DNA from: an uncultured Candidatus Binatia bacterium
GTDB taxonomy: Bacteria; Desulfobacterota; Binatia; HRBIN30
DNA: 64,000 bases
Reading direction: 5' to 3'
Assembly (NCBI GenBank): GCA_964524885.1
Contig: CAZGEJ010000008.1
Location: forward strand, 53,462 to 117,461
Shown: positions 8,529 to 23,812 of the stretch, piece after piece
How the letters are laid out: the number at the start of each line of letters is the position of its first letter
How positions within the stretch are numbered: the first letter of the stretch is position 1
Made by a program: the position numbers and the translations under genes
Notes under the pieces: generated by a model
What the model was told of the DNA's origin: nothing
What the model saw: the letters and a program-made list of their open reading frames with translations, nothing else
Databases searched by the model: none

Positions 8529-8530
8529 AG

Positions 8531-8538
8531 CCCCCCCC
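8531..8538 (-). repeat. Homopolymeric G8 tract (C8 on the plus strand) 2 nt upstream of the tpsA ATG, within or replacing the Shine-Dalgarno region
   Basis: Plus strand reads ...ccaccatag cccccccc tg...; on the minus strand this is caGGGGGGGGctATGgtg. Confidence 0.7.
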
Positions 8539-8617
8539 TGTCGCTCGATCGTCGTGCTCATGGATCCGAAATCCCGATTGGTCTTCGTCGCTAGGCTGGC
8601 GTCACGCATGATCGTCC

Positions 8618-11600
8618 TCACTCCGGATCCGTGCAGTCGACGCGGAATCGCGCCGTGCCGCGGCCGTTGAGAGCCGCTGAACACGACGGCCGCGCATCTT
8701 GGCAGAAGCCGATGCCTGCCGTCGGGCAACTCGGTGCCTCGCAGCCGTCACCATCCTCACCACCCGTCGGAGTACAAGTCGTAAAGCCCTCCTGGCCGAT
8801 GTACTCCCAGCAGCAATCGCCGAAGGTGGGGAACCCGGTCCATCCGCCGTCGGCGGCGATGCCCACCTGGTCGATGTTGTCGAGCGGGGCGTCGGCCTGG
8901 ATCCGACACGTGGTCACGGCATTGTCCGACAGATTGTCGTCGTTCGGTGTCAGGTTGAGCGTCAGGCGTCCCCCCGGCCACTCCGCCGGGTCGACCGAGC
9001 CGCCATCGCTGCTGGTGACGCTGAAGCGGTGTGTACCCTGCGGGCAGCAGATCCCTGGGCTCTGGCAGAGCCCGGAGCCGTTGCAGCGCTCGACTCCGTC
9101 ACAGGCGCGATTGTTGCTCGTGCACACGGAGCCGAACGCGTCGTTGCCGTTGCAGTCGTCCGCGTCCTCGCGGCATTGTTCGCTACAGTCCGAATCGCCG
9201 TCGACTCCGGGGCATGGATTGCCCGAGCCCACGCAGGCTCCGGCGCCATTGCACGAAGAAGTGCTGGTACAGAACAGGCCGTCATTACACGGCTTACCGC
9301 TTGGGTTGTTGCCGGTGCAGGAGTACGTTCCGCCGGTTTCGACACAGGCCTCCGTGCAGTCGGAGCTGTTGAGGCCTTCGTCGACCAGCGACTGGCACGG
9401 ATCGTTGCTGCCGACACAAATGCCGGTCGCGTTGCAGCGGTCCGTCGTCGTGCACGCCAGGCTGTCGTTGCAACTCGAGTTGAGCGGGTCGTTGCCGTTA
9501 CAGTCGTCATTCGCTTCGCGGCACTGTTCACTGCAATCGCCGTCGCCATCGGCGCCCTGGCACGGCGTGCCGGTACCGATGCAGAAGCCGTCGCCGTCGC
9601 AGCGATCGGTGGCGGTGCAGAACAAGCCATCGTTGCACGACACGTTGGCCGGGTCGTTGGTCGAGCAGTCGTCCTCCGCCTCGTTGCAGCGCTCCGAGCA
9701 GTCGCCGTCGCCATCCGGTCCTGGGCACGGATCGCCGGCATGGACGGTACAGGCACCGGCACTGCACCGGTCGGTACCGTTGCAGAAGGTACCGTCCGAG
9801 CAGTTGCTGAGATTGGCATCTTGCGCCGTACAGCTGCCGACGCCGATACAGCCATAGCCGCTGCAGGCCGTCTCGTCGGCGCACGCCTCGCTGCAATCGC
9901 TGTCCAGGTCGCCCAGCTTGAACTGATTCGCGGGCAGGTAACACGGGTCGTTCGGGTCGTCCGGGTCGCTGCCGATGATACAACGCTTGTTGCACGGATC
10001 GGCGCTGCGTACGCACGCACCCGCGCTGCACTTGTCGGCATCGCCGTTGCAGAAATCGTCGTCTCGGCAATCGAGGGCATCAGCCGACACGGCGGTGCAG
10101 CTCGACGTCGCTTCGTCGCAGGCATCTTGGCACGTCGCCGACAAGCCTACGCCGCGACCCAGCAAATCCTTGCTGTCGCCCGGACAGGGCGGCGCGCCGC
10201 CTTGGCATGTGCCGGCGACACAGAAGTCCTGCGCCACGGTGATGTCGGTGCCGTCGATCGAGAACACCTCCGAGGCGCAGGCGCGAGCGGCGCAGCGCCC
10301 ACCGTTCGGACAGTCCGCGTTGCCGGCACAAGGCTTGCCGGCGTCGGGTCCGTCGCAAACGTCGGCGCAGTTGTTGCTGCGGCAGTCCGAGTCCTGCGTG
10401 CAAGCGTTGCCGACGTCCGCGCCGGTGCAGAACAGTTGGTCGTTGCAGGGGGTGCCGTCCGGATCGGGGAAAGTGCAGGTGTTGGCGAACTCGTCACACG
10501 ACTCGCTGCAATTGATGTCGTCGTCGCCGCCATAGGCGCCGCCGTTGGGACAGGGATCGATGTTTTCGCTGACGCACAGACCGCCGGCGCAGACCTCGGT
10601 GCCGTTGCAGAACAGGCGATCGTCGCATGAGGAGCCATCCGGGTCATTGCCCGTGCAGGCATCGGCGCTTTCGTCGCACGTCTCGGAGCAGTCGGTGTCG
10701 GCATCGGGTCCGGCACACGGATCACCCGTGTGAATCGTGCAGGAGCCACCGCTGCACGTATCGTTGCCATTGCAGAAGAATCCGTCGTCGCATGGCGCCT
10801 GGTTGGCCTCGTGGCTGCAAGCGCCGAAGCCGTTGCACTCGTCGTCCGTGCACTGGTTGTCGTCGCTTTCGCAGACCTTGCCGGCAGGGGCGTAGCCGTT
10901 GTCGCGACAGCTGCCGCTGCCGTTGCAGGTGTCCTGCACGACACAGGCGCTACCCGGGTCGCCACATGGCGTTCCGGAGATTTCGAAGTTCGGGCGACAG
11001 ACCCCGGCACCGTTACACGAATCGGGGTTGTTGCATTCGGTATCCGTGCCGTCGCCGCACGTCGTACCGGCATCGACGAAGCCCTGGTCGAGACACTCGC
11101 CGGAACCGTCGCAGGTATCTTGGTTGATGCACTCGGTGCCCGTATCGCCGCAGGCCGTACCTACGGGCATGTCGTTGTCGCCGCACGCGCCGGCACCGTC
11201 GCAGGAGTCGGGTGCCGTACAGGCATTCGAGGTGGGATCGCCGCAGGTCGTGCCGGCCGACTTGAAGCCCTGATCGGCGCATTGGCCGCTGGCATCACAG
11301 GTGTCTTGGTTGGTGCACTCGGTGCCGGCGTCACCGCAATGGCTGCCTACCGTCGCGTGGTTGACGGCACAGGTACCGGAGCCGTCGCAGGTGTCGGGAT
11401 TGGTGCATTCGGTATCCGACGCATCGCCGCAGGGTGTACCGGCCGCGACGAAGCCGGCGTTGCGACATTGGCCGAAGCCGTTGCAGGTGTCCTGGACGAC
11501 GCACTCGCTGCCGGCGTCGCCGCAATCGGTGCCGCTGACGGCATGGTTGCCCTGGCAGGTACCGGCTCCGTCACAGGTGTCGGGGTTGGTACAGGCGTCG

Positions 11601-14296
11601 TCGGTAGGATCGCCGCAGGTCGTGCCAGAGGGGCGGAAGCCGTTGTCGCTACAGCTACCGCTACCGTCGCAGGTATCCTGCACGGTGCACTCGTCGCCGG
11701 CGTCGCCGCACGTCGCTCCCGACGGGGCGTCGTTGGCCAGACAAGTCCCTGCCCCATCGCAGGCGTCGGGGTTGGTGCATTCGCTGTCGAGGGCCGAGCC
11801 GCAGGTGGTTCCCGCCGAAAGGAAACCGTTGTCGACGCAGCTACCGTCACCGTTGCAGGTATCTTGCACGGTGCACTCGTCGCCGGCGTCGCCGCACGCG
11901 GTGCCCACGCTCAAGTCGTTGTCCTGGCAGGTACCGGCACCGTTACAGGTATCCTGAGCGCTGCACTCCGTCGCCGGGTCGCCGCAGGTCGTGCCGCTCA
12001 CCTTGAAGCCGTTGTCGCTGCACGCACCGGTGCCGTCGCAGGTATCTTGGTTGACGCATTCGGTGCCGGCGTCGCCGCACGAAGCTCCGGCCACGAGGTC
12101 GTTCGGCTGGCAGCTGCCCGTGCCGTCACAGGTATCCTGGCCACTGCATTCGGTCGCAGCATCACCACACGTTGTGCCGCTCGGCCGGAAGCCCTGGTCG
12201 GAGCAACTCCCCGTGCCATCGCAAATGTCCTGGACGGTGCACTCGTCCCCGGCATCGCCACACGGCGTACCATGCGAGCGAAAGCCGTTGTCCGAACAGG
12301 TGCCAGCACCGTTGCAGGTATCCTGCACGGTGCACTCGTCCCCGGCATCGCCACAGGAGGTACCGGCGGCGAGGAAACCGTTGTCAGAGCAACTGCCGGT
12401 GCCGTCGCAGGTATCCTGCACCGTGCATTCGTTGCCGGCGTCGCCGCAGGTCGTGCCCGTGGGCAAGTCATTGGGAACGCACGAGCCCGTGCCGTTGCAC
12501 GTATCCTGGCCGCTGCATTCGTTGGCTGGATCGCCGCAGGTCGTGCCGGAGGCGACGAAGCCGTTGTCGGTGCAGCGCCCCGACCCATCACAGAGGTCCT
12601 GGTTGGTGCACTCGTCCCCGGCATCGCCGCAGGTCGTGCCGGCGGAGCGATGGTTCACTTGGCAACTACCGGCGCCATCGCAGGTGTCTTGTTCGGAGCA
12701 TTCCGTCCCTGGGCTGCCGCAGCTCGAGCCGGCGGGGGCGAAGCCATTGTCGACGCAACTGCCGGTGCCGTCGCAAGTGTCGCGCAGGGTGCATTCCGTG
12801 CCCGGATCACCGCAGCCGGTACCCGGCGCCAGATCGTTGGCGAGACAGCTGCCGGCACCGTCACAGGTATCTTGCTCGGAGCACTCGGTGGCCGGATCGC
12901 CGCAGGCCGTGCCGGCGGTGGCGAAGCCATTGTCGACGCAGCTTCCCGAGCCGTCGCAGGTGTCTTGTAGCGAGCAGGCATCGGGGTCGCCGCCACAGGC
13001 GGTTCCGGCGGGCAGGTCGTTGGCGATGCAGTTGCCGTTCCCATCGCAGGTATCGGCCAGGCTGCAGCCGTTCGCCGAGGCGTCGCCGCAGGTGGTGCCG
13101 AAGGGAGCGGCCATGTTGATGCAACCGCCCGAGCCGTCGCACGCGTCGACCGTACACGGGTTGCCGTCGTCGCATTCGACGTCGGGGTTGGTGCCGACCT
13201 GCACCGGCAGGCACGCGCCGTCGGCACCGCCCGTCTTGTCGCCGACGCAGGCCATGCAGCCGGAGTCACAACGGGCATCGCAACAGACGCCATCGCTGGA
13301 GCAGATGCCGGACTGACACTGATCGTCGCTGCCGCAGGCGCGGCCGAGAGGTGCCGGCGTTTGGGTCGGCGTGGCGGAAGGCGGGGGCGAGACGAGCGGC
13401 GGCGAGGTGGCGGTCGGCGTCGGCGTCGGCACGCTCTGGTACATCGATTCGTGCAGGAAGTCGGCGCAGGTGTCGACGCTGTCACGCGTGCAACTCTGCA
13501 GACTGGTCAAGTCGTTGCCGCAGGTGTCGAGGCCCGTGCTCAGCATGCCGGTGTCGCAGCGCTTGGCGATGCCGCCGGCGAGCTTGTCGAGGACGCCGAC
13601 GTACTGCTTGTACATCGGGTTGTTGGCGGCATCGACCTGGCTGCAATCGACGCTCTCCCAGCCGGGACGCTGGCGGTCCTTGTTGAACTGGCACTTACCG
13701 CGCAGCTGCAACACCTTGACGCCGTACTTGCGCGCTTCCTTGCCGACCGCCTTCTGGCAGCTGATCGCGGCGCGATCGTCGAGACCGGCTGTCGGCGTAC
13801 CGTAAACGTCGGTGACGATGCCTTCGATGCAGGCATCGGCGAGACACTTGAGGCATTTGCCTACGTCACTGTATCGCTTCAGTTCGGGGACGAAGGCATC
13901 GCAGGGGGCGGGGCAACCGGCGAAGCCGAGCGCCGCCGGGCCGACGGGGGCGTCGGCGTCGCAGCGCGAGGTCATGCGGCTGAAGGCAGAAGCCGTCTGA
14001 CCGGCGATGGCGTCGATGCCGTCGCCGTAACCGGCGGCAACCCAGGTGCTGGGATCGGCGCAGTCGAGCGTCGGCGGTGGCGGCAGGTCACCGGCCATTT
14101 GGTCGGCGTAGCAGTCGGTGTAGACGCGCAACACTTTGTCGAAATAGGCGCCGGCGCTGCTGTTGATGGCGCGGCGGCACTTGGCGCCGCCCGAGTCGAG
14201 CTGCCCCTCCTGGGCACCCGCGAAGTAGAGGGTTCCGGCGCCGATGCCGAACGCGAGAATCAATCCGAGTCGGATCACCGTGTTGCGTGTGCGCAT
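8618..14296 (-). CDS. Secreted cysteine-rich tandem-repeat protein (1892 aa): N-terminal Cys-containing domain, Pro/Thr linker, ~21 tandem ~31-aa four-Cys repeats, then ~10 C-x-D-x-x-F-C-N-G...PC (DUF4215-like) units
   Basis: ORF with signal peptide MRTRNTVIRLGLILAFGIGAGTLYFAGAQ and GGGGG 9 nt upstream of the ATG. Repeats such as CGDPATECSEQDTCDGAGSCLANDLAPGTG recur in tandem. The C-terminal half carries CDDGFFCNGNDTCSGGSCTIHTGDPC-type units. These resemble Myxococcales cysteine-rich repeat proteins. Confidence 0.8.
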   Translation of the reverse strand: MRTRNTVIRLGLILAFGIGAGTLYFAGAQEGQLDSGGAKCRRAINSSAGAYFDKVLRVYTDCYADQMAGDLPPPPTLDCADPSTWVAAGYGDGIDAIAGQTASAFSRMTSRCDADAPVGPAALGFAGCPAPCDAFVPELKRYSDVGKCLKCLADACIEGIVTDVYGTPTAGLDDRAAISCQKAVGKEARKYGVKVLQLRGKCQFNKDRQRPGWESVDCSQVDAANNPMYKQYVGVLDKLAGGIAKRCDTGMLSTGLDTCGNDLTSLQSCTRDSVDTCADFLHESMYQSVPTPTPTATSPPLVSPPPSATPTQTPAPLGRACGSDDQCQSGICSSDGVCCDARCDSGCMACVGDKTGGADGACLPVQVGTNPDVECDDGNPCTVDACDGSGGCINMAAPFGTTCGDASANGCSLADTCDGNGNCIANDLPAGTACGGDPDACSLQDTCDGSGSCVDNGFATAGTACGDPATECSEQDTCDGAGSCLANDLAPGTGCGDPGTECTLRDTCDGTGSCVDNGFAPAGSSCGSPGTECSEQDTCDGAGSCQVNHRSAGTTCGDAGDECTNQDLCDGSGRCTDNGFVASGTTCGDPANECSGQDTCNGTGSCVPNDLPTGTTCGDAGNECTVQDTCDGTGSCSDNGFLAAGTSCGDAGDECTVQDTCNGAGTCSDNGFRSHGTPCGDAGDECTVQDICDGTGSCSDQGFRPSGTTCGDAATECSGQDTCDGTGSCQPNDLVAGASCGDAGTECVNQDTCDGTGACSDNGFKVSGTTCGDPATECSAQDTCNGAGTCQDNDLSVGTACGDAGDECTVQDTCNGDGSCVDNGFLSAGTTCGSALDSECTNPDACDGAGTCLANDAPSGATCGDAGDECTVQDTCDGSGSCSDNGFRPSGTTCGDPTDDACTNPDTCDGAGTCQGNHAVSGTDCGDAGSECVVQDTCNGFGQCRNAGFVAAGTPCGDASDTECTNPDTCDGSGTCAVNHATVGSHCGDAGTECTNQDTCDASGQCADQGFKSAGTTCGDPTSNACTAPDSCDGAGACGDNDMPVGTACGDTGTECINQDTCDGSGECLDQGFVDAGTTCGDGTDTECNNPDSCNGAGVCRPNFEISGTPCGDPGSACVVQDTCNGSGSCRDNGYAPAGKVCESDDNQCTDDECNGFGACSHEANQAPCDDGFFCNGNDTCSGGSCTIHTGDPCAGPDADTDCSETCDESADACTGNDPDGSSCDDRLFCNGTEVCAGGLCVSENIDPCPNGGAYGGDDDINCSESCDEFANTCTFPDPDGTPCNDQLFCTGADVGNACTQDSDCRSNNCADVCDGPDAGKPCAGNADCPNGGRCAARACASEVFSIDGTDITVAQDFCVAGTCQGGAPPCPGDSKDLLGRGVGLSATCQDACDEATSSCTAVSADALDCRDDDFCNGDADKCSAGACVRSADPCNKRCIIGSDPDDPNDPCYLPANQFKLGDLDSDCSEACADETACSGYGCIGVGSCTAQDANLSNCSDGTFCNGTDRCSAGACTVHAGDPCPGPDGDGDCSERCNEAEDDCSTNDPANVSCNDGLFCTATDRCDGDGFCIGTGTPCQGADGDGDCSEQCREANDDCNGNDPLNSSCNDSLACTTTDRCNATGICVGSNDPCQSLVDEGLNSSDCTEACVETGGTYSCTGNNPSGKPCNDGLFCTSTSSCNGAGACVGSGNPCPGVDGDSDCSEQCREDADDCNGNDAFGSVCTSNNRACDGVERCNGSGLCQSPGICCPQGTHRFSVTSSDGGSVDPAEWPGGRLTLNLTPNDDNLSDNAVTTCRIQADAPLDNIDQVGIAADGGWTGFPTFGDCCWEYIGQEGFTTCTPTGGEDGDGCEAPSCPTAGIGFCQDARPSCSAALNGRGTARFRVDCTDPE

Positions 14297-14510
14297 GTGC
14301 CGTTACCCCCGAGCCCGTGCATGCGAGTGCGAGCGATGACCCGCGCCAGCGGCGGCTGCCTGTTCGTCTGCGTGCTTCGTCATCGCTTCACCCTCCAGGC
14401 CGGCCGGCGCCCCTCTGCCCTGTCAACTGCCCCTTGGCGCGCGGCTGGCGGCTACTCTTCCCCAGTCTGACCGAATCGCTGCGCTACATACGAAAGTCGG
14501 AACCAAAATG

Positions 14511-14560
14511 TCCAGAGAAATCTGACGAAAATCTGACGTTCGCGATTTTGCAAAGGAATT
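14511..14560. promoter_or_regulatory. AT-rich operator-like region in a divergent intergenic region: direct repeat AAATCTGACG x2 (14518-14527, 14530-14539) and palindrome AGGAA-TTTG-TTCCT
   Basis: Local AT-rich island in a 68% GC background, between the divergent genes starting at 14296 (-) and 14828 (+). The same decamer occurs again at 54482-54491, upstream of the 54663 gene. Confidence 0.4.
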
Positions 14561-14688
14561 TGTTCCTGCGGCGCACGGTTTCCCGCCCCTCCGAAGCGTC
14601 GCCGCGCGCCTCCCCAGCCGGTCCGGACCCGCCGCAGTCCCACCCCGAGCGCCCCCCAACGGCAACCAAACGCAGGCGCCGACGCGCC

Positions 14689-14718
14689 CTAAGCCTCAGC
14701 CTCAGCCTAAGCCTAAGC
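14689..14718. repeat. Hexanucleotide microsatellite (CTAAGC/CTCAGC)x5
   Basis: ctaagc ctcagc ctcagc ctaagc ctaagc, read directly in the intergenic region. Confidence 0.9.
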
Positions 14719-14827
14719 CCTCCGGCGCCCAAGCGCCGACCCCACCAATTGTCCGCCGAGCCCCCGCTCTGGTACGGTCGATCGCACCCGGCGGTGCAGC
14801 AAGCCGCTCGGTAGCGGAGGGCTGACT

Positions 14828-15895
14828 GTGTCCCATCGTTTCGCCCGACTCTGCGTGCTCAGCATGTTGGCCGCCGTGGCCTTCATCTGGATCCGCCGTC
14901 CAGCGGTCGAGCCACCGGTGCACGTACGCGAGTTCGTCTCCGAGGCCCTGACTCTCGACGGCATCTACCGTTCGATGCGCGGGCCGACGAGCAGCCGGAC
15001 CATCCAGATCGACCCGGCCCAGCCGCCGCGCCGCATCTGGATTCGCGGCGTCGATGTCGAACCCGTTGCCGCCGACGGCTCCGTGCTGCCGGACGGCCAG
15101 CAATTCATTTGTCACGTCAATCTGTCGTATCCCGATCGCGAGTCCTGGCTACGCGATCTCGAACCCATGGAGCGCCAGGGGCGCTGGCTGCCCTTCAACC
15201 AGTTCACCTTGGTGCAAGGGCACTACTCCATCGACTTCCCCCCAGGCTTTGCCCTACCCGCCTCCTCCGATCAGCCCTTCCGCTTGCTGACGATGGCGCA
15301 AAATCAGGATCCGGCGCGCGACCCCTTCGCCCTGCACATCCGCTCGCGGCTGCGCTTCCACTACGACGACGAACTGCCTCAGCCCCCCATCCCGCTCAAC
15401 AAGCTCTCTTGGGACATCCGCGTGCCCGCCCCTTACGTTCCCGAGGTGCACGACCCGTTGCGCGCCGGCGAGAGTTGCGCCGGCGACGACCCGATCCTCG
15501 GTGCCGAGGGCACGCCGCCGGTGCTGCACTTCGCCGTACCGCCCGGCCGGCACGAGTATCGCAGCGTCGTCGACGGGGTCACCAAGATCCCGTTTCCGAC
15601 GACGGCGCACCACATTTCGGCGCACCTACACGTCTATGGGGTATCCCTCGAACTACGCGACCAGACGGCCGACCGGACCTTGTTCAAGAGTCTCGCCACG
15701 ACCAACCCGTCGGCCACCGGAATCGTCGAGATGACCCACTATTCGAGTGCCAGCGGCCTGCCGCTCGATCCGACGCACCGTTACGAGTTGATCGCCATCT
15801 ACGACAACCCGACGCCGCACGTGGTCGACGCCATGGCCGTCGTTTACATCTATTACAGAGACGTCCCGCCCGGCTCCGGCGAGCAGGCCTCGTGA
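14828..15895 (+). CDS. Hypothetical membrane-anchored protein (355 aa, N-terminal TM helix), first gene of a three-gene operon
   Basis: GTG start with GGAGGG 6 nt upstream; N-terminal hydrophobic segment LCVLSMLAAVAFIWI. The stop overlaps the next start (GTGA). Confidence 0.6.
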   Translation: MSHRFARLCVLSMLAAVAFIWIRRPAVEPPVHVREFVSEALTLDGIYRSMRGPTSSRTIQIDPAQPPRRIWIRGVDVEPVAADGSVLPDGQQFICHVNLSYPDRESWLRDLEPMERQGRWLPFNQFTLVQGHYSIDFPPGFALPASSDQPFRLLTMAQNQDPARDPFALHIRSRLRFHYDDELPQPPIPLNKLSWDIRVPAPYVPEVHDPLRAGESCAGDDPILGAEGTPPVLHFAVPPGRHEYRSVVDGVTKIPFPTTAHHISAHLHVYGVSLELRDQTADRTLFKSLATTNPSATGIVEMTHYSSASGLPLDPTHRYELIAIYDNPTPHVVDAMAVVYIYYRDVPPGSGEQAS

Positions 15896-16764
15896 GTCCT
15901 TTCAGGATCCCATGGGCGCCTGCGGTCGACGGCCCCACGGAGCGCCGCCGGCAGGTCGACGCCTTCGCCACGCTGCTGCTGGCGATCGTCGCCGTCGAGT
16001 ATTGGTCGCGTGGCATCCCGAAGTGGAACGACCTCGGCCCGCAGTACGTCGGGACCGCCGTGCTCGTCAGCGTGCTGGCGCTGCTGGGCATCGCGTGGCC
16101 GCGAACGCGCCGTAGCGTCTGCGCCGTCATCACCGGGCTGCACGTCGGCATCATCGTCGCCGAGTTTCCCGAAGCGGCGAATCACTCGTACTTGGAGGCG
16201 ACCCTCTGCGGCTTGGTGGCCCTGCTCGACGTCCGGCGCGACGAGGAGGTGGTGCTGCTGCGCGATGCGGCCCGAGTTCTCTTCGCCATCGTCTTGTTCT
16301 ACGCCGGCCTGCAGAAACTCCTGAGCGGCTACTGGTTCGCCGGGCAATACCTCGCCTTCTCCCTGGCGCGTCCGTCCTTCCAGCCCGTCCTCGCGCCGCT
16401 CCTCACGGCCGACGAATTCGCGCGTCTGACGGCCTACGGCGGCGCCGTCGGCGATGGTCCGTATCGGGTCGAGACGCCGCTTTTCCTGCTCGCCTCGAAC
16501 GCGGTCTACATCGCGGAGATGGCCTTGGCGCCGCTGTTGCTGTGGCAACGGGCGCGCGTCCTGGCGGCGCTCGCCGCGATCGCCCTGATCGTCATCATCG
16601 AAATCGCCGCGCGTGAGTTCTTCTTCGGATTGGTCTTTCTCAACCTGGCGTTGCTCTTCCTGCCGTCGTCCTGGCATGGGCGCGCCCGCTGGCCCGGCGC
16701 CGCGGCACTCGCCTACCTTCTGCTCGTGCGCCTCGGCGTCGCGCCGGCGATGGTGTTCCAGTGA
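15892..16764 (+). CDS. Polytopic integral membrane protein, unknown function (~290 aa). A weak, unverified resemblance to HTTM/SdpB-like membrane proteins
   Basis: GTG at 15892 overlaps the upstream TGA. Translation VSPFRIPWAPAVDG... contains many hydrophobic helices. It is reported in the track only as the C-terminal part of the mis-started ORF 15109..16764. Confidence 0.55.
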   Translation: MSPFRIPWAPAVDGPTERRRQVDAFATLLLAIVAVEYWSRGIPKWNDLGPQYVGTAVLVSVLALLGIAWPRTRRSVCAVITGLHVGIIVAEFPEAANHSYLEATLCGLVALLDVRRDEEVVLLRDAARVLFAIVLFYAGLQKLLSGYWFAGQYLAFSLARPSFQPVLAPLLTADEFARLTAYGGAVGDGPYRVETPLFLLASNAVYIAEMALAPLLLWQRARVLAALAAIALIVIIEIAAREFFFGLVFLNLALLFLPSSWHGRARWPGAAALAYLLLVRLGVAPAMVFQ

Positions 16765-17225
16765 CGACGGCGACGAAGCGGTGGATCGTGCGCGGCGTCT
16801 TGACGGCGGCGCTGCTCTGGCCCCTCGTGCATCTCGCCTTGGTCGCGCGCTACGACTTGAGCCGTTGGAAGCTCGCCGGCTGGGGCATGTACACCGAGCC
16901 GGGACTCAAGGACGTCGGCATGGAAGTCTACGGCCGGCGCACGGCCAACGGGACGCTGGAAATCCTCACCGAGATCGACGCGGTCCTGCGCCGGGAGGCC
17001 GACGAATTCCTGTACGATTATCGCTGGTTGCGCCGCCTGACCCAGCCCGACTCGTTCGTCGCCGCCATCGCCGCGGCGCGTCCCGAGTGGCAACGGATCG
17101 AGGTCCATGTCTTCCGTCCCTATCTGGACGCGGCCAGCGGCATCGTCGAACGCTCGCAGGTGCGTTACCTCTACGACCGAGACCACGACGGGATACGACT
17201 GTCGGCGGTCGAGGAAGTCCATTGA
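16761..17225 (+). CDS. Hypothetical protein (154 aa) with an N-terminal TM helix, third gene of the operon
   Basis: GTG start overlaps the TGA of the previous gene (GTGA); hydrophobic segment WIVRGVLTAALLWPLVHLALV. Confidence 0.5.
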   Translation: MTTATKRWIVRGVLTAALLWPLVHLALVARYDLSRWKLAGWGMYTEPGLKDVGMEVYGRRTANGTLEILTEIDAVLRREADEFLYDYRWLRRLTQPDSFVAAIAAARPEWQRIEVHVFRPYLDAASGIVERSQVRYLYDRDHDGIRLSAVEEVH

Positions 17226-19376: not shown

Positions 19377-19440
19377 GGCGCGGCTTCCAGCCGACACCGC
19401 TCCTGAGGTATCGAACCGCATGGAAGATGAGGAGATCGTC

Positions 19441-20481
19441 ATGCATCGCTACATCCGCTCGATCGGGCTCCGCCTCGCGCTCGCGCTCTCCCTCTGGGTC
19501 GGCAGCGGTACGCCGGCGTGGGCCGTCGCCGCCGACCTCGGCGAACTACTCCCGGCTCTCGGCTTCGACCAGGACGACGCCGACGACCTGCTCTCGGGCA
19601 AGGTACTCGCCGGAGAACTGACCGAAGGTGGCGGCAAGGAGTTGGCGATCACCCTCGCTCTCTTCGTCAAGGCCCCCCCGAGCAAGATCGCGCACGCCGT
19701 CCGCGACGGCGAGACGCTGCACGCCTCGCGCGACGTACTCGGCACAGCGACGCTCACCGACGCTGCAACCGCCGCCGCCGCATTGGCCAAGATCTCCTTG
19801 CCCGACAAGGAAGTGGTGGCTCTCTCGCAAGCCGAAGCCGGCTCCGACTTCAACCTCTCCAGCGACGAGATCGCCGCCCTGCGCGCGGCAGCCGCAGGGA
19901 AGTCTGCCAAGGAAGTGGCCACCGACGCCAACCTGCGCGCCGCGGTCGCCGATGCCTACCGCAAGGCCTTGGCGCAGCGCCTCGCGGCCTACCAGGCACG
20001 CGGCGTCGCCGGTATCGCCGCCTACGATCGCGGCGGCAGTCGCTCGCAACCATCCGACGAACTCGCCGGCGCCCTCGGCCGCGACGCCGTCCTGCGGCAA
20101 CGCCAGCCGGAAGTGTACGCCGCATTGGAATCGTTCCCGAAGAAACCTCTCGCCGGCGCCGAACATCAGTTCCTCGGCCTGTTGCAGGACGCCAACGGCC
20201 GTCCGGCCATGGTGCTGTCACATCGGATGTTCGTCGATCTGCCGCACGGAGCCCTGCTGGCCGAGCGACAATTCTTCGTCGGCCATTCGTACAACTCATT
20301 GCAAGTCTTGATCGGTGTCATCCCCGTCGACGGCGGTTCCGTGGTGTTCTATCGCAACCGCACCTTCACCGACCAGGTCACCGGCTTCGGCGGCGCGGCC
20401 AAGCGCGGCATCGGCGAGACGATGATGCGCGACGCCATCTCGGCCAAGCTCGAAGCGATTCGCAGCAAGGTCTTCGAATGA
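19441..20481 (+). CDS. Secreted hypothetical protein (signal peptide MHRYIRSIGLRLALALSLWVGSGTPAWA)
   Basis: ORF with GAGGAG 7 nt upstream of the ATG at 19441; an alternative start is 19420. Confidence 0.55.
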   Translation: MHRYIRSIGLRLALALSLWVGSGTPAWAVAADLGELLPALGFDQDDADDLLSGKVLAGELTEGGGKELAITLALFVKAPPSKIAHAVRDGETLHASRDVLGTATLTDAATAAAALAKISLPDKEVVALSQAEAGSDFNLSSDEIAALRAAAAGKSAKEVATDANLRAAVADAYRKALAQRLAAYQARGVAGIAAYDRGGSRSQPSDELAGALGRDAVLRQRQPEVYAALESFPKKPLAGAEHQFLGLLQDANGRPAMVLSHRMFVDLPHGALLAERQFFVGHSYNSLQVLIGVIPVDGGSVVFYRNRTFTDQVTGFGGAAKRGIGETMMRDAISAKLEAIRSKVFE

Positions 20482-20525
20482 CCCGCCGCCAGCAGCGGCA
20501 ATCACCGCAGGACAAGGAGGGCAAG

Positions 20526-21548
20526 ATGCGCCACGGTTGGATGATCGCCGCCATCGCTGGGCTCATGCTCGGCATCACGGGAACCGCGCAGGCGCAGCAA
20601 CTGAGTCACTATCTGCCGGGCCTTCCCAACTCGAACGACCTCTTCCTGCCACCGGAAGAGGCGGGTGAACTCGTCTATCTTCAGTACAACGTCTATTACC
20701 GCCCCGCAGCCTTGCGCAACGGCGACGGCAAAGAGATCGACGAGATCACCTTCACGCCCCGCTTCGGCAACCCGCGCACGGTCGACCTCGATCTCGACAT
20801 CGATCTCGTCTACATCGTGCCCACCATGGTCTGGGCACCGGACGTCCCCGTCCTCGGCGGTCGTTATGCCGCCTATGTCGCCCTGCCCGTCGGCCACCCC
20901 TCGATCAACGCCGGCGTCGAGTCGGCCCTCGGCTTCGGCCGCAACATCGACGAGTCCTCCTGGGGCGTGGGCGACATGTTCATCCAACCGCTCTGGTTCA
21001 TGTGGACCTTCCCGCGCCAGGGACGCCGCCCGACCCTCGATGTGACGGCAGGCTACGGCTTCGACGCACCCACCGGACGATACGAGGCCGGCGCCGCCGA
21101 CAACACCGGACTCGGCTTCTGGGAGCATCAATTCCAGTCGGCCCTGCGTCTGCGCGTCGACGAGCGCATCGGCCTCAATGCCTTCGTCGCCCACACCTTC
21201 GAAGTCGGCCACAACAAGGAAGACGCCGACATCCGACCCGGCGCCCACTATACGACCAACTGGGGCTTCGGACGGCAGTTCGCCGAGGGCTGGTTGGAGA
21301 CCGCCGTGCTCGGCTACCACTCCTTCCAGATCACCGAGGACTCCGGCTCCGACGTCCTCGCTCGCACCAAAGACGACCTCGATCAGGTCCACGGGATCGG
21401 CGCCCAACTGGGCGTTCCGAAGCTGGGCCTGTCGGTCAAGTACTTCCGCGAGTTCTGTGCCCAATCGCGCTTCGAAGGGGATCTCGTCACGTTCACCTTC
21501 GCTCTGCCTCTCGAGTTGCTGGCGCAGAAAGTCGGGCTCGACCTTTGA
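20526..21548 (+). CDS. Putative outer-membrane beta-barrel protein (transporter / MetA-pathway-like family)
   Basis: Signal peptide MRHGWMIAAIAGLMLGITGTAQAQQ with AGGAGGG upstream. It has alternating amphipathic beta-strand composition and many aromatic residues. The family assignment is from recollection, not a database search. Confidence 0.45.
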   Translation: MRHGWMIAAIAGLMLGITGTAQAQQLSHYLPGLPNSNDLFLPPEEAGELVYLQYNVYYRPAALRNGDGKEIDEITFTPRFGNPRTVDLDLDIDLVYIVPTMVWAPDVPVLGGRYAAYVALPVGHPSINAGVESALGFGRNIDESSWGVGDMFIQPLWFMWTFPRQGRRPTLDVTAGYGFDAPTGRYEAGAADNTGLGFWEHQFQSALRLRVDERIGLNAFVAHTFEVGHNKEDADIRPGAHYTTNWGFGRQFAEGWLETAVLGYHSFQITEDSGSDVLARTKDDLDQVHGIGAQLGVPKLGLSVKYFREFCAQSRFEGDLVTFTFALPLELLAQKVGLDL

Positions 21549-21592
21549 GGCACCCCTGCGCGCCGGCCGTGCCGCGGCGAGGCCGGCCAGGC

Positions 21593-23812
21593 GTGACCCG
21601 TCTCGCGGTCGCGGCGCTGCTCGCCTTCGCCGCGGCAGCCCATGCCGACACCGGGTTCGTCGACGAGTCGACCTGCGCCTCCTGCCATGCAACCGCCGCC
21701 GCCGCTTGGGCCGGCTCGCACCACGATCTCGCCATGCAGGAGGCCTCCGCGTCGACCGTGCGCGGAGCCTTCCACGGCTCGGAGGTGACATACGCAGGCG
21801 TCACCTCGCGCTTCAGCCAGCGCGACGGGCGCTTCTTCGTGCGCACCGACGGCGCCGACGGCCAACTCGCCGAATTCGCCATCAGCGCCGCCTTCGGGGT
21901 CGAACCCTTGCAGCAATATCTGGTGGATTTCGCCGACGGGCGAAAACAACCCCTGCCCCTCGCCTGGGATACCGCCGCGCGCCGCTGGTTCCACCTGTAT
22001 CCCGACGAATCGGTCGACTTCCGCGACGAGTTGCACTGGACCAAGCCGGCACAGAACTGGAATCACATGTGCGGCGAGTGCCACGCCACCGGCTATCGCA
22101 AGAACTACGACGCCGGCAAGGATCGCTTCGCCACCGCCGCCGCACGCTTCGACGTCGGCTGCCAGGCTTGCCACGGCCCCGCTGCGCGTCATCTGGAGTG
22201 GGCCAAGTCCGTCACGCCCGACGCCGCGCCTCGCCCACGCGACGTGGTACGACGGGGTTTCGACGTCGACCTGAGCGACGGCGACCGCCAACTCGAGGTG
22301 TGCGCCCAGTGCCACGCCCGCCGCGCCCGGCTGAGCGACGACGTCCGCTTCGACGCGCCGCTGCTCGACGCCCACCTGCCGGCCCTGTTGACCGAAGACC
22401 TTTATACCGCCGACGGCCAGATCCTCGGCGAGGTGTTCGAGTACGGATCGTTTCTCCAAAGCCGTATGCATGCCAAAGGCGTGCGTTGCAGCGACTGCCA
22501 CGAGCCGCATTCGACCCGCGTCCGCGCACCGGGGAACGCGCTGTGCGTCACATGCCACAACCCGACGGCCCCGGCCGCCGGCGCACACGTCGACACGAGC
22601 GGCTTGCTGCGCAAGACGTACGACGCGCCGGAGCACCATTTCCATCAGCCAGGCACGCCGGGCGCGCGATGCGTCGACTGCCACGCGCCGCCGCGCACCT
22701 ACATGGTCGTCGACCCGCGCCACGATCACAGCTTCCGCGTGCCGCGCCCGGATCTTTCGGTCAGCCTCGGCACGCCCAACGCCTGCCAGGGCTGTCATGC
22801 GGACAAGCCCGCTCCGTGGGCCGTCGAGCAGATCGAACGACGCTTCGGCACCCAACGCCGCCAACAACCCCATTTCGGCTCGACGCTGGCCGCCGGACGA
22901 CGTGGCCAACCGGGTGCGGCGGCGGCGCTGGCCGGCTTGATCGCCGACACGAGCCAACCCGGCATCGTGCGAGCCACCGCGCTCGAAGTCTTCACGGCCT
23001 ATCCGGGTCGGCCGTTGCTCGAAGCCCTGGCGCGCGCGACACGCGACGGCGACGCGCTCGTGCGGCGCACTGCCGCGACGGCCCACGAATCGCTGCCGCC
23101 CGAGATGCGCCGAGCGGCGCTCGAACCGCTGTTGAGCGACCCGACGCGTGCCGTGCGCATCGAAGCGGCACGCCTGCTGGCGCCCGTCGCCGCCGGGTTG
23201 GCGCCGGACGCTGCGGCGAAACAGGCGCGCGCCATCGCCGAACTCGAAGCGGTTTTCGCCCGCAACGCCGACCGGGCCGACGGCCTGACCAACCAGGGCA
23301 ACCTCGCCGTGGCCCGCAACGATGCAGCCGCGGCGGAGCGTTTGTTTGAGCAAGCCATCCGGCGCGACCCCCATTTCGTGCCGGCCTACGTCAATCTCGC
23401 CGACCTCTACCGCGCCACCGGACGTGAACCACAAGCCGAGAGCACGCTGCGCGCCGGCCTGGCCGTCGTGCCGCAAGCACCGGCGCTACACGAGACTCTC
23501 GGCCTCGCCTTGGTGCGCCAAGGCAGGAAAAACGAGGCCTTGCAGGAGTTCACCGCCGCCGTGAATGCGGCGCCGGAGGAGTCTCGCCTGGCGTATGTGT
23601 ACGCCTTGTCGCTCGACGACGCCGGCCGCCGCGCCGAGGCCATCGCGGTGCTCGAAACCGCCGACGCCCGGAGGAGCGACCGCGACATCCTTTTGGCGCT
23701 GGCAGCGTATGCGCGCGATGCCGGCGATACCGCCGCGATGGCGCGGCATCTCCAATCCCTGGCGGCCATCAACCCGCACGATCCCGCCGTCGCTCCCGCG
23801 GCACCACGCTGA
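21593..23812 (+). CDS. Multiheme cytochrome c (8 CXXCH motifs) fused to C-terminal TPR repeats
   Basis: GTG start followed by signal peptide VTRLAVAALLAFAAAAHA. Haem-binding motifs: CASCH, CGECH, CQACH, CAQCH, CSDCH, CVTCH, CVDCH, CQGCH. The C-terminal half has TPR-like repeats (RADGLTNQGNLAVARNDAAAAERLFEQAIRRDPHFVPAYVNLADLY...). Confidence 0.8.
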   Translation: MTRLAVAALLAFAAAAHADTGFVDESTCASCHATAAAAWAGSHHDLAMQEASASTVRGAFHGSEVTYAGVTSRFSQRDGRFFVRTDGADGQLAEFAISAAFGVEPLQQYLVDFADGRKQPLPLAWDTAARRWFHLYPDESVDFRDELHWTKPAQNWNHMCGECHATGYRKNYDAGKDRFATAAARFDVGCQACHGPAARHLEWAKSVTPDAAPRPRDVVRRGFDVDLSDGDRQLEVCAQCHARRARLSDDVRFDAPLLDAHLPALLTEDLYTADGQILGEVFEYGSFLQSRMHAKGVRCSDCHEPHSTRVRAPGNALCVTCHNPTAPAAGAHVDTSGLLRKTYDAPEHHFHQPGTPGARCVDCHAPPRTYMVVDPRHDHSFRVPRPDLSVSLGTPNACQGCHADKPAPWAVEQIERRFGTQRRQQPHFGSTLAAGRRGQPGAAAALAGLIADTSQPGIVRATALEVFTAYPGRPLLEALARATRDGDALVRRTAATAHESLPPEMRRAALEPLLSDPTRAVRIEAARLLAPVAAGLAPDAAAKQARAIAELEAVFARNADRADGLTNQGNLAVARNDAAAAERLFEQAIRRDPHFVPAYVNLADLYRATGREPQAESTLRAGLAVVPQAPALHETLGLALVRQGRKNEALQEFTAAVNAAPEESRLAYVYALSLDDAGRRAEAIAVLETADARRSDRDILLALAAYARDAGDTAAMARHLQSLAAINPHDPAVAPAAPR

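What the first reader, a model, noticed from the sequence alone, without database searches (positions are those of the whole stretch)
14828..17225. Translationally coupled three-gene membrane operon of unknown function, divergent from the Cys-rich giant
Three genes (355, 290 and 154 aa) are joined by GTGA overlaps. All have TM segments, and the middle one is polytopic. None matches a family I can name confidently. The middle protein's size and topology loosely recall HTTM/SdpB-type membrane modification enzymes. The divergent arrangement with the Cys-rich repeat protein hints at a maturation or export role.
Basis: inference. Interest (0 to 1): 0.5.

Follow-up and report, generated by a model that had tools for sequence, protein, structure and literature searches.

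The report
Split carboxylase-like enzyme beside Cys-rich proteins
The three overlapping genes are real: two of them form a widespread, unnamed gene pair resembling the membrane core of the blood-clotting enzyme vitamin K-dependent carboxylase, and this pair sits next to secreted cysteine-rich proteins sharing one C-terminal domain, so it probably modifies or matures them.

Summary
Genes A (14828-15895, 355 aa), B (15892-16764, 290 aa) and C (16761-17225, 154 aa) are joined by GTGA overlaps. A and C each have one N-terminal membrane helix. B is polytopic.

The trio is not the conserved unit.
- B-C is the conserved core. C follows B in all 33 genome loci where the downstream sequence is intact, across at least seven phyla.
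- B has the fold of the human vitamin K-dependent gamma-carboxylase (GGCX) membrane domain. The 14 best Foldseek hits are all GGCX.
- B keeps residues that align with GGCX N159/H160, K218, D263 and F299.
- In B's closest clade, B-C lies beside secreted Cys/Asp-rich proteins that share a new ~130-aa C-terminal domain (CTD). The window's 1892-aa giant carries it. The link holds in both search directions.

Best reading: a two-subunit GGCX-like periplasmic enzyme that matures CTD proteins, with A as an added tailoring oxygenase. The chemistry is inferred, not shown. A, C and the CTD have no Pfam or NCBIfam family. I rate it a new variant of a known kind.

The parts
14828..15895 (+). Gene A, 355 aa. 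One N-terminal membrane anchor or signal (residues 4-27), then a two-domain periplasmic beta-sandwich with the PHM/DBH copper-monooxygenase fold. Added to the operon only in this lineage.
15892..16764 (+). Gene B, 290 aa. Polytopic membrane protein with the fold of the GGCX membrane (HTTM) domain. It is the catalytic core of the conserved B-C pair.
16761..17225 (+). Gene C, 154 aa. One N-terminal membrane helix (residues 9-30; basic residues precede it, so the rest should be periplasmic) and a ~120-aa domain. It is the obligate partner of B. It has no Cys.
   Evidence: Translation. C lies directly downstream of B in all 33 genome loci where that sequence is intact. Invariant W20, P21, W36, M43, Y44, P47 across phyla. 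No Pfam, NCBIfam or PDB sequence match.
8618..14296 (-). Divergently transcribed 1892-aa secreted protein rich in Cys, Asp and Gly. It has a signal peptide, an N-terminal domain, about 30 repeats of 31 aa, further Cys-rich modules and the CTD. It is the proposed substrate or client of B-C.
   Evidence: Translation. Composition and signal peptide. 93-nt repeats. No Pfam or NCBIfam hit. Ortholog in the same arrangement in L004.
8621..9070 (-). C-terminal domain (CTD) of the giant, residues ~1743-1892. Motifs: GGxxDxAEWPGG, GG(E)DGDGC, SCPPAG, RPSCSAALNG. This is the element that co-occurs with B-C.
   Evidence: Local profile match at residues 1743-1891, E = 3e-31. Alignment A7 with 38 invariant columns, including 10 Cys, D37 and E40. 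No Pfam, NCBIfam or PDB match. A metagenome scan starting from the CTD recovers B and/or C beside it in 28 of 55 loci.
14297..14827 (.). 531-bp divergent intergenic region between the giant and gene A. It presumably holds both promoters. It contains a hexamer repeat (14688-14719) and a direct 11-mer repeat (14518-14538).
   Evidence: Sequence. Tandem repeats. No sigma-70-type promoter consensus was found, which says little for this kind of organism.
14816..14821 (+). GGAGGG Shine-Dalgarno sequence 6 nt upstream of the GTG start of A.
   Evidence: Read directly from the sequence.

Best explanation
B and C form a two-subunit enzyme in the inner membrane whose active site faces the periplasm. [quoted passage not shown] C supplies one more membrane helix and a small periplasmic lid, the role played by the fused lumenal segment in GGCX and by DUF5819 in other bacteria.

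The complex acts on secreted Cys/Asp-rich proteins encoded beside it. It recognises or modifies their shared ~130-aa C-terminal domain (CTD). In this window the client is the 1892-aa giant.

The most likely chemistry follows GGCX. The conserved Lys (K142) deprotonates a menaquinol, and oxygenation of the quinol creates a strong base. That base removes a proton from an acidic residue held by N97/H98. The residue is then carboxylated or otherwise altered. Invariant candidates in the CTD are E40 in AEWPGG and the acidic GG(E)DGDG loop.

Gene A is a periplasmic, membrane-anchored protein with the PHM/DBH copper-monooxygenase fold. It joined the operon only in this lineage. It probably adds a second oxidative modification (hydroxylation) to the same client.

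Shown: the gene structure, the folds, the conserved residues, B-C coupling and B-C/CTD synteny. Inferred: the physical B-C complex, the identity of the substrate, the use of quinol, and the chemistry.
For: 2. Catalytic equivalents are kept. hhalign maps N97/H98, K142, E209 and F245 onto GGCX N159/H160, K218, D263 and F299. The GGCX sequence was verified. The roles of those residues are described in PMC12647623. All are at least 90% conserved in 126 diverse family members.
3. B-C is an obligate pair. C lies directly downstream of B in all 33 genome loci where that sequence is intact, across Myxococcota, Binatia, Acidobacteriota, Spirochaetota, Sumerlaeota, Gemmatimonadota and Verrucomicrobiota, usually 0-30 nt apart.
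4. A split HTTM enzyme with a small single-helix partner has a precedent: HTTM plus DUF5819, predicted to rebuild the whole GGCX shape (bioRxiv 10.64898/2026.08.19.745780).
5. Synteny with the CTD is two-way. Of the 14 loci in B's closest clade, 11 carry one or more CTD proteins; the other three are cut just downstream of B-C. Starting from the CTD, 28 of 55 metagenome loci have B and/or C, typically 25-280 bp away. For loci with at least 5 kb on both sides the figure is 11 of 15.
6. The compartment is consistent. The five CTD proteins checked have Sec signal peptides and 8-11.6% Cys. A and C have N-terminal anchors. Some A homologues have lipoprotein-type signals.
Against: - No biochemical data exist for any member of the A, B, C or CTD families.
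- The sequence links to GGCX are weak: hhalign E ~0.01, the Pfam score is 0.2 bits below threshold, and a PDB profile search did not find GGCX.
- C cannot be shown to be homologous to DUF5819 or to the GGCX lumenal segment. There are no Pfam hits. hhalign produces a collinear 120-column alignment, but with P = 0.23.
- 29 of 126 B-family members weakly match MauE, more than the 12 that match HTTM. MauE has no known carboxylase role.
- In the more distant B-C loci (L020-L045) no CTD was found and the neighbours are heterogeneous. The client relationship is therefore established for one clade only.
- B has signature residues that GGCX lacks (GDGPY, R241/E242), so its chemistry may differ.
- A's link to B-C rests only on operon membership in one narrow lineage.
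- A's second copper site (CuH) is not conserved: PHM has HH where A has C95-H96, and H132 is present in only 9 of 13 members.
Confidence: 0.4

Rival explanations
1. B-C is a maturation or folding factor for disulfide-rich secreted proteins and adds no covalent group. It would resemble what is proposed for other members of the same superfamily: MauE for the disulfide-rich small subunit of methylamine dehydrogenase, and LMF1 for lipases (from my own knowledge of those families). It would couple the membrane quinone pool or redox state to oxidative folding of the CTD, or of the whole Cys-rich client.
For: - The clients have 8-11.6% Cys, and 10 Cys are invariant in the CTD.
- MauE is the most frequent weak Pfam match in the B family (29 of 126). 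One member, P0007, passes the MauE cut-off with 29 bits against 27.
- The whole superfamily appears to deal with quinones (GGCX; DoxD/DoxX from established knowledge).
Against: - B has no conserved Cys pair, and no Cys is among its near-invariant columns. C has no Cys at all. B-C therefore cannot exchange disulfides itself.
- No thioredoxin-fold partner recurs in the neighbourhood.
- The MauE match covers only the helix carrying the Lys (B residues ~118-170). It leaves out the N-terminal half with the N-H motif, which aligns to GGCX.
- GGCX residues that hold the substrate carboxylate and CO2 (N159/H160, F299) have conserved counterparts in B.
Confidence: 0.25
2. The CTD is a sorting or processing signal and B-C is its dedicated processing machinery. 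B-C would cleave, release or anchor the passenger protein, as SdpA and SdpB are required to process the secreted protein SdpC into the SDP toxin.
For: - The architecture is that of a sorting tag: variable passengers of 478-1892 aa carry the same domain at the extreme C-terminus, often as two or three paralogues per locus, next to a dedicated membrane protein pair.
- The SdpAB-SdpC precedent has the same gene logic: a small partner, an HTTM-type membrane protein and an adjacent secreted client (PMC6818787).
Against: - The CTD is a 130-aa globular, Cys-rich domain with no membrane helix or basic tail, unlike known sortase or exosortase signals.
- B and C did not match any NCBIfam model, including the SdpB and SdpA models.
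- B shows no protease-like motif. Its conserved residues map to an oxygenase/carboxylase site.
Confidence: 0.15
3. B-C is a general membrane function, such as quinone or lipid handling or stress response, and is unrelated to the neighbouring Cys-rich proteins. Under this reading A, B and C share an operon here by accident of genome rearrangement.
For: - In the distant B-C loci the neighbours are heterogeneous: VWA, GDSL/AlgX-like and Acyl_transf_3 proteins.
- A is an independent gene in six other loci.
- A Kup potassium transporter follows C in the window.
Against: - Two-way B-C/CTD adjacency across many independent contigs, often with gaps of 25-100 bp on the same strand, is far beyond chance.
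- The family is rare: 35 loci among 185,579 species genomes. That does not fit a housekeeping role.
Confidence: 0.1

Closest known systems
[quoted passage not shown]
   Same: - Residues aligned with N159/H160, K218, D263 and F299 are conserved.
- The active side faces away from the cytoplasm, and the clients are secreted acidic, Cys-rich proteins.
   Different: - B is only 290 aa and lacks the fused lumenal clamp and cap domains, which supply Y395, M401 and R436.
- A separate 154-aa protein, C, probably substitutes for them.
- Sequence identity is 15-19% and the Pfam score is just under threshold.
- B-specific invariant motifs (GDGPY, IExAAREFFFG) are absent from GGCX.
- The candidate recognition element is a C-terminal domain, not an N-terminal propeptide.
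- Activity has not been tested.
Bacterial HTTM protein plus adjacent DUF5819 protein (predicted complex, bioRxiv 10.64898/2026.08.19.745780), and the fused bacterial carboxylase MloH
   Same: The plan is the same two-gene one: an HTTM-type polytopic protein and an adjacent protein with an N-terminal membrane helix followed by a ~120-160-aa domain. In the published model that pair rebuilds the overall GGCX shape.
   Different: - C gives no match to DUF5819 in Pfam, in any of 37 members scanned.
- B has no DCC1-like C-terminal domain.
- The gene order here is B then C.
- Here a family of large secreted CTD proteins is the conserved neighbour. MloH acts on a polyketide-peptide intermediate.
SdpA/SdpB-SdpC (and YitP/YitO-YitM) of Bacillus subtilis
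   Same: A small partner and an HTTM-family membrane protein (family assignment from my own knowledge) are encoded next to a secreted protein whose maturation needs both (PMC6818787).
   Different: - NCBIfam returned no match for B, and only a sub-threshold, unrelated one for C.
- The client is a small toxin precursor, not a large protein of 478-1892 aa with a CTD.
- The systems occur in Firmicutes rather than in Myxococcota, Binatia and their relatives.
MauE / DoxX family (Pfam PF07291, PF07681)
   Same: There are weak profile matches over the helix carrying the conserved Gly-x-Gln-Lys-Leu motif. MauE is needed for maturation of a disulfide-rich periplasmic protein (established knowledge).
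   Different: MauE is a ~130-residue module. B has an extra N-terminal half with the N-H motif that aligns to GGCX, not to MauE. The window's own B does not match MauE.
Peptidylglycine alpha-hydroxylating monooxygenase and dopamine beta-hydroxylase (type II copper monooxygenases)
   Different: - A gives no Pfam hit to the Cu2_monooxygen domains, and hhalign against PHM is not significant.
- The CuH site is not kept: C95-H96 replaces H107-H108, and the third His is variable.
- A is bacterial and membrane- or lipid-anchored.
- Its substrate is unknown.

Membership tests
HTTM / GGCX superfamily (gene B) | Score at or above the Pfam HTTM (PF05090) gathering threshold | tested here: not met
   27.5 bits against a 27.7-bit cut-off, E = 3e-6, over residues 127-186 only. 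Only 12 of 126 family members give even weak HTTM matches.
HTTM / GGCX superfamily (gene B) | Fold of the GGCX membrane domain | tested here: met
   [not shown]
HTTM / GGCX superfamily (gene B) | Catalytic Lys (K218), substrate-carboxylate binders N159/H160, D263 and the CO2-stacking F299 | tested here: met
   hhalign pairs them with K142, N97/H98, E209 and F245. All are at least 90% conserved in the family. Caveat: the alignment E-value is only ~0.01, and I could not do a 3D superposition.
HTTM / GGCX superfamily (genes B + C) | Lumenal or periplasmic segment after a further membrane helix that closes the active site (GGCX Y395, W399-D-M401, R436) | tested here: inconclusive
   B lacks this segment. 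C has the right architecture and collinear motifs (a Pro in the membrane helix, W36, W41-G-M43, P-D). However, hhalign against GGCX plus four long bacterial HTTM proteins gives score 14 and P = 0.23. Earlier tests were negative.
HTTM / GGCX superfamily (genes B + C) | Quinol- and O2-dependent epoxidase/carboxylase activity | not testable with these tools
   This needs biochemistry.
DUF5819 (gene C) | Match to the Pfam DUF5819 model | tested here: not met
   No match at E <= 10 in any of 19, then 37, family members.
SdpB / SdpA antimicrobial-peptide maturation system (genes B, C) | Match to the NCBIfam SdpB-family and SdpA-family models | tested here: not met
   No NCBIfam family matched B at E <= 1. 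Only an irrelevant weak hit appeared for C.
MauE (gene B) | Match to Pfam PF07291 at threshold | tested here: not met
   The window's B gives no MauE hit. 29 of 126 relatives match weakly. One (P0007) reaches 29 bits against a 27-bit cut-off, over the Lys helix only.
Type II copper monooxygenase, PHM/DBH (gene A) | Two-domain beta-sandwich fold | tested here: met
   [not shown]
Type II copper monooxygenase, PHM/DBH (gene A) | CuM site: His-x-His plus Met about 70 residues downstream | tested here: met
   H266, H268 and M336 are invariant in 13 sequences, with 68-residue spacing. The motifs parallel PHM H242/H244/M314 in the verified PHM sequence. The correspondence is at motif level only; hhalign was not significant.
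Type II copper monooxygenase, PHM/DBH (gene A) | CuH site: three His (H107, H108, H172 in PHM) | tested here: not met
   The candidate positions are C95-H96 (invariant) and H132 (9 of 13 members). Three conserved His are not present. The PHM N-domain positions come from my memory of the sequence and were not verified here.
Type II copper monooxygenase, PHM/DBH (gene A) | Match to Pfam Cu2_monooxygen / Cu2_monoox_C | tested here: not met
   No such hit at E <= 1.

The most novel reading that the evidence does not exclude
B-C is the first protein-modifying vitamin K-type (menaquinol- and O2-dependent) carboxylase system of bacteria. It would be built from two separate subunits. It would install gamma-carboxy-Glu or beta-carboxy-Asp, or use the same strong-base chemistry for another modification, in a previously unknown C-terminal domain of large secreted Cys/Asp-rich surface proteins. 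In this lineage a copper monooxygenase with only the CuM site would add a second modification.
Probability: 0.25. Interest if true: 0.85.

Novelty: new variant of a known kind. Interest (0 to 1): 0.62.

Why it matters
GGCX is known as an animal enzyme for blood clotting and bone proteins. The only characterised bacterial relative that carboxylates, MloH, works on a small-molecule intermediate. What the many other bacterial HTTM-type proteins do is an open question.

This locus gives that question a concrete, testable form:
- a compact two-gene version of the enzyme with the catalytic residues intact;
- a clear candidate client family marked by one conserved domain, which can be examined by mass spectrometry.

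It also defines four protein families with no database model, or only sub-threshold matches: the B family (several hundred 50%-identity clusters), its partner C, the CTD, and a bacterial PHM-like family (A). If the chemistry is carboxylation, it would extend Gla-type calcium-binding modification to bacterial surface proteins.

Tried and rejected
- **Fused B-C structure prediction.** I tried a linker-joined B-C prediction to test the complex. 
- **AFDB Foldseek for A.** The library was not available.
- **Profile searches against PDB sequences.** Searches with A, B, C and the CTD gave nothing useful.
- **C as the GGCX lumenal segment.** hhalign against GGCX picked only a spurious 'DLSPW' match. 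Against a five-sequence profile of long HTTM C-termini it gave the expected collinear alignment, but without significance.
- **C as DUF5819.** No Pfam support.
- **A against the PHM sequence.** hhalign was not significant, so the CuM correspondence rests on motifs plus fold.
- **A third conserved gene in distant B-C loci.** The neighbours are heterogeneous.
- **A beside B-C or a CTD protein elsewhere.** Not seen in any of six loci.
- **B-C as a thiol-disulfide oxidoreductase.** Rejected, because neither protein has conserved Cys.
- **Kup as part of the unit.** Rejected. It is an ordinary K+ transporter and is not conserved next to B-C.
- **Regulatory features.** The Rfam scan of the window found nothing. 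The promoter and terminator scan was uninformative.
- **Source organism.** It could not be named, because the cluster look-up returned no names.
Full report
**1. The observation**

The three genes are present as described.
- A runs 14828-15895 (GTG start, 355 aa), B 15892-16764 (GTG start, 290 aa) and C 16761-17225 (GTG start, 154 aa). Each junction is a GTGA in which the stop overlaps the next start.
- GC3 of 0.85-0.87 fits real genes in this 65-68% GC window. A GGAGGG ribosome-binding site precedes A.
- Public gene calls on independent contigs give the same three products.
- Hydropathy and the models give one N-terminal helix in A (residues 4-27), one in C (9-30) and a polytopic B with 12 helices.
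- Upstream and divergent lies an 1892-aa protein (8618-14296, minus strand). It has a signal peptide, 220 Cys (11.6%), 241 Asp and 31-aa tandem repeats.
- Downstream lies an ordinary Kup potassium transporter.

**2. The conserved unit is B-C, not the trio**

The indexed protein search found few relatives: 22 for B, 14 for A and 17 for C. An exhaustive profile search then found 765 B-family representatives at E <= 1e-3. The listed best 150 are mostly about 280-320 aa; the shorter ones look like fragments.

In 35 species genomes, B is followed directly by C in every locus where the downstream sequence is intact (33 of 35). The gap is usually 0-30 nt. These genomes span Myxococcota, Binatia, Acidobacteriota, Spirochaetota, Sumerlaeota, Gemmatimonadota and Verrucomicrobiota. 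The same holds in metagenome contigs.

A is absent from all these loci. It occurs alone in six unrelated contexts. The A-B-C arrangement is seen only in the window, in an 89-94% identical contig and in one 65-79% identical relative, L004. L004 also keeps the giant and the large gene behind it.

**3. What B is**

- Pfam HTTM matches at E = 3e-6 but falls 0.2 bits below the family threshold.
- Family members match MauE (29 of 126) or HTTM (12 of 126) only weakly. The MauE matches cover only the helix that carries the conserved Lys.
- The B model is confident (pLDDT 92.3).
- Foldseek's 14 best PDB hits are all human GGCX (prob 1.00, TMq 0.58-0.61, 15-18% identity). The next hits are ABC transporters with TM ~0.2.

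I verified the human GGCX sequence against the PDB and ran profile-sequence alignments. They pair B residues with GGCX residues as follows:

| B residue | GGCX residue |
|---|---|
| N97/H98 | N159/H160 |
| K142 | K218 |
| E209 | D263 |
| F245 | F299 |

By eye, extending the alignment, W148 falls opposite W223. This position is not conserved across the family.

In GGCX these residues are the quinol-deprotonating base, its neighbouring acid, the binders of the substrate carboxylate and the CO2-stacking residue (PMC12647623). In B, the five tabulated residues are at least 90% conserved over 126 diverse members.

The alignment statistics alone are weak (E ~0.01). Fold, motif order and conservation agree with them. 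B also has its own invariant motifs (GDGPY, IExAAREFFFG), so its chemistry need not be identical to that of GGCX.

**4. What C is**

C matches nothing in Pfam, NCBIfam or PDB sequences. Its invariant residues are W20-P21 in the membrane helix, W36, M43-Y44 and P47.

A 2026 preprint reports that adjacent HTTM and DUF5819 proteins are predicted to rebuild the whole GGCX shape. DUF5819 proteins have an N-terminal helix followed by a small domain. The preprint also notes that the bacterial carboxylase MloH has these parts fused.

C has that architecture. I retrieved four long bacterial HTTM proteins from plasmids. I aligned their post-HTTM regions together with GGCX 349-523 against the C profile. 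The result is a collinear 120-column alignment: membrane helix with Pro, then W, then W-x-M (GGCX W399-D-M401), then P-D. The score is not significant (P = 0.23). C as the lid subunit is therefore an inference by analogy.

**5. What A is**

H266-x-H268 and M336 are invariant, with 68-residue spacing. In the verified PHM sequence the CuM ligands H242, H244 and M314 are spaced by 70 residues. The flanking motifs also match: 'SAHLHVYG' against 'RVHTHHLG', and 'DAMAVVYIYY' against 'DEMCNLYIMYY'.

The electron-transfer CuH site is not kept (C95-H96; H132 variable). Some homologues carry lipoprotein-type signals, so A is periplasmic.

**6. The link to the Cys-rich giant**

All-against-all comparison of the neighbourhoods showed that proteins next to B-C share the giant's last ~130-150 residues, not merely its repeats. 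A local profile finds this C-terminal domain (CTD) in 11 loci: the window, L004-L007, L011-L013, L016, L018 and L019. It is always at the extreme C-terminus of proteins of 478-1892 aa, sometimes as two paralogues per locus.

These 11 are the loci whose B is closest to the window's (45-65% identity). The three remaining loci of that clade (L014, L015, L017) are cut just downstream of B-C.

The CTD alignment has 38 invariant columns. They include 10 Cys and the motifs GGxxDxAEWPGG, GGxxGxxC (consensus GGEDGDGC) and RPSCSAALNG. The CTD has no Pfam, NCBIfam or PDB match.

The five CTD proteins whose N-termini I checked have Sec signal peptides and 8-11.6% Cys.

The reverse test was a metagenome scan starting from the CTD. 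It returned 55 loci.
- 28 carry B and/or C, typically 25-280 bp from the CTD gene.
- Among loci with at least 5 kb on both sides, 11 of 15 carry them.
- One contig without a local B-C carries the pair elsewhere on the same contig (L072 and L088).
- None has A.

In more distant B-C loci no CTD was found. Their neighbours vary, although a few are Cys-rich.

**7. Interpretation**

The best-supported reading is a two-subunit, periplasm-facing GGCX-like enzyme (B plus C) dedicated to secreted CTD proteins. The giant is its client in this window. A is a lineage-specific second tailoring oxygenase.

I favour quinol- and O2-driven strong-base chemistry on an acidic residue of the CTD, with carboxylation as the default. 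The reason is that the residues which hold the carboxylate and CO2 in GGCX have conserved counterparts in B.

Three rivals remain:
- a non-covalent, redox-linked maturation factor, as proposed for MauE and LMF1;
- a processing or sorting system like SdpAB-SdpC (PMC6818787);
- no functional link at all.

Neither B nor C has conserved Cys, which argues against direct disulfide chemistry.

**8. Novelty and verdict**

The superfamily and the split HTTM-plus-partner idea are known. Three things are new here:
- the B-C family as a distinct unit without a model of its own (B matches HTTM and MauE only weakly, C matches nothing);
- its two-way association with a new C-terminal domain on large secreted Cys/Asp-rich proteins;
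- the operon fusion with a CuM-only PHM-like protein.

I rate it a new variant of a known kind, of above-average interest, with the function still to be shown.

Noticed in passing
window 1-8729 (-): A very large ORF (over 2909 aa, running off the window) with a two-partner-secretion TPS domain at residues 127-370 lies directly behind the Cys-rich giant on the same strand. In relative L004 the gene at this position is called at 10,665 aa; I did not compare the two sequences. The giant may be co-expressed with a TpsA-type exoprotein.
   Followed up: partly
window 21002-23812 (+): A 936-aa protein combines multihaem cytochrome c motifs (Cytochrome_C7, paired CXXCH, c554) with C-terminal TPR repeats. 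Two ORFs with no Pfam match lie before it, at 19420-20481 (+) and 20502-21791 (-); the second overlaps the cytochrome ORF by about 790 nt.
   Followed up: no
window 14518-14538 and 14688-14719: The divergent intergenic region holds a direct 11-mer repeat (AAATCTGACGA, two copies) and a hexamer array (CCTAAG/CCTCAG, 5.3 copies). These could be regulatory or slippage-prone. Their function is unknown.
   Followed up: no
L006 (Logan ERR3494953, the same sample as window-identical contig L003): This is a second B-C pair (46% identical B) with its own 909-aa CTD protein and without A. The same community, or possibly the same genome, therefore carries two such systems.
   Followed up: partly
L017 9246-11031: B is tandemly duplicated (B-B-C) in a 'Deltaproteobacteria' MAG.
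   Followed up: no
window 13450-14200 (-) and the N-termini of CTD proteins in L005, L006, L007 and L016: CTD proteins also share an N-terminal region just after the signal peptide (for example '..KC(I/R)xx(M/I)N..'). BLAST matches the giant's residues 35-288 to a CTD protein and to a further ORF in L016. The clients may form one family with conserved ends and a variable Cys-rich middle.
   Followed up: partly
L010 8603-9058 and L106 1792-2235: In two of the loci where A occurs alone, a ~150-aa protein with a weak Cys_rich_FGFR match lies two genes upstream of A, separated from it by an enoyl-CoA hydratase gene. This could be a small Cys-rich partner of A. I did not examine it.
   Followed up: no
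L101 (Chondrinema plasmid) 114-7779: A classical long HTTM protein sits in an operon of imelysin, di-haem oxidoreductase, imelysin, HTTM protein and a TonB-dependent receptor. This context is quite different from the B-C/CTD system and shows how varied bacterial HTTM roles are.
   Followed up: no
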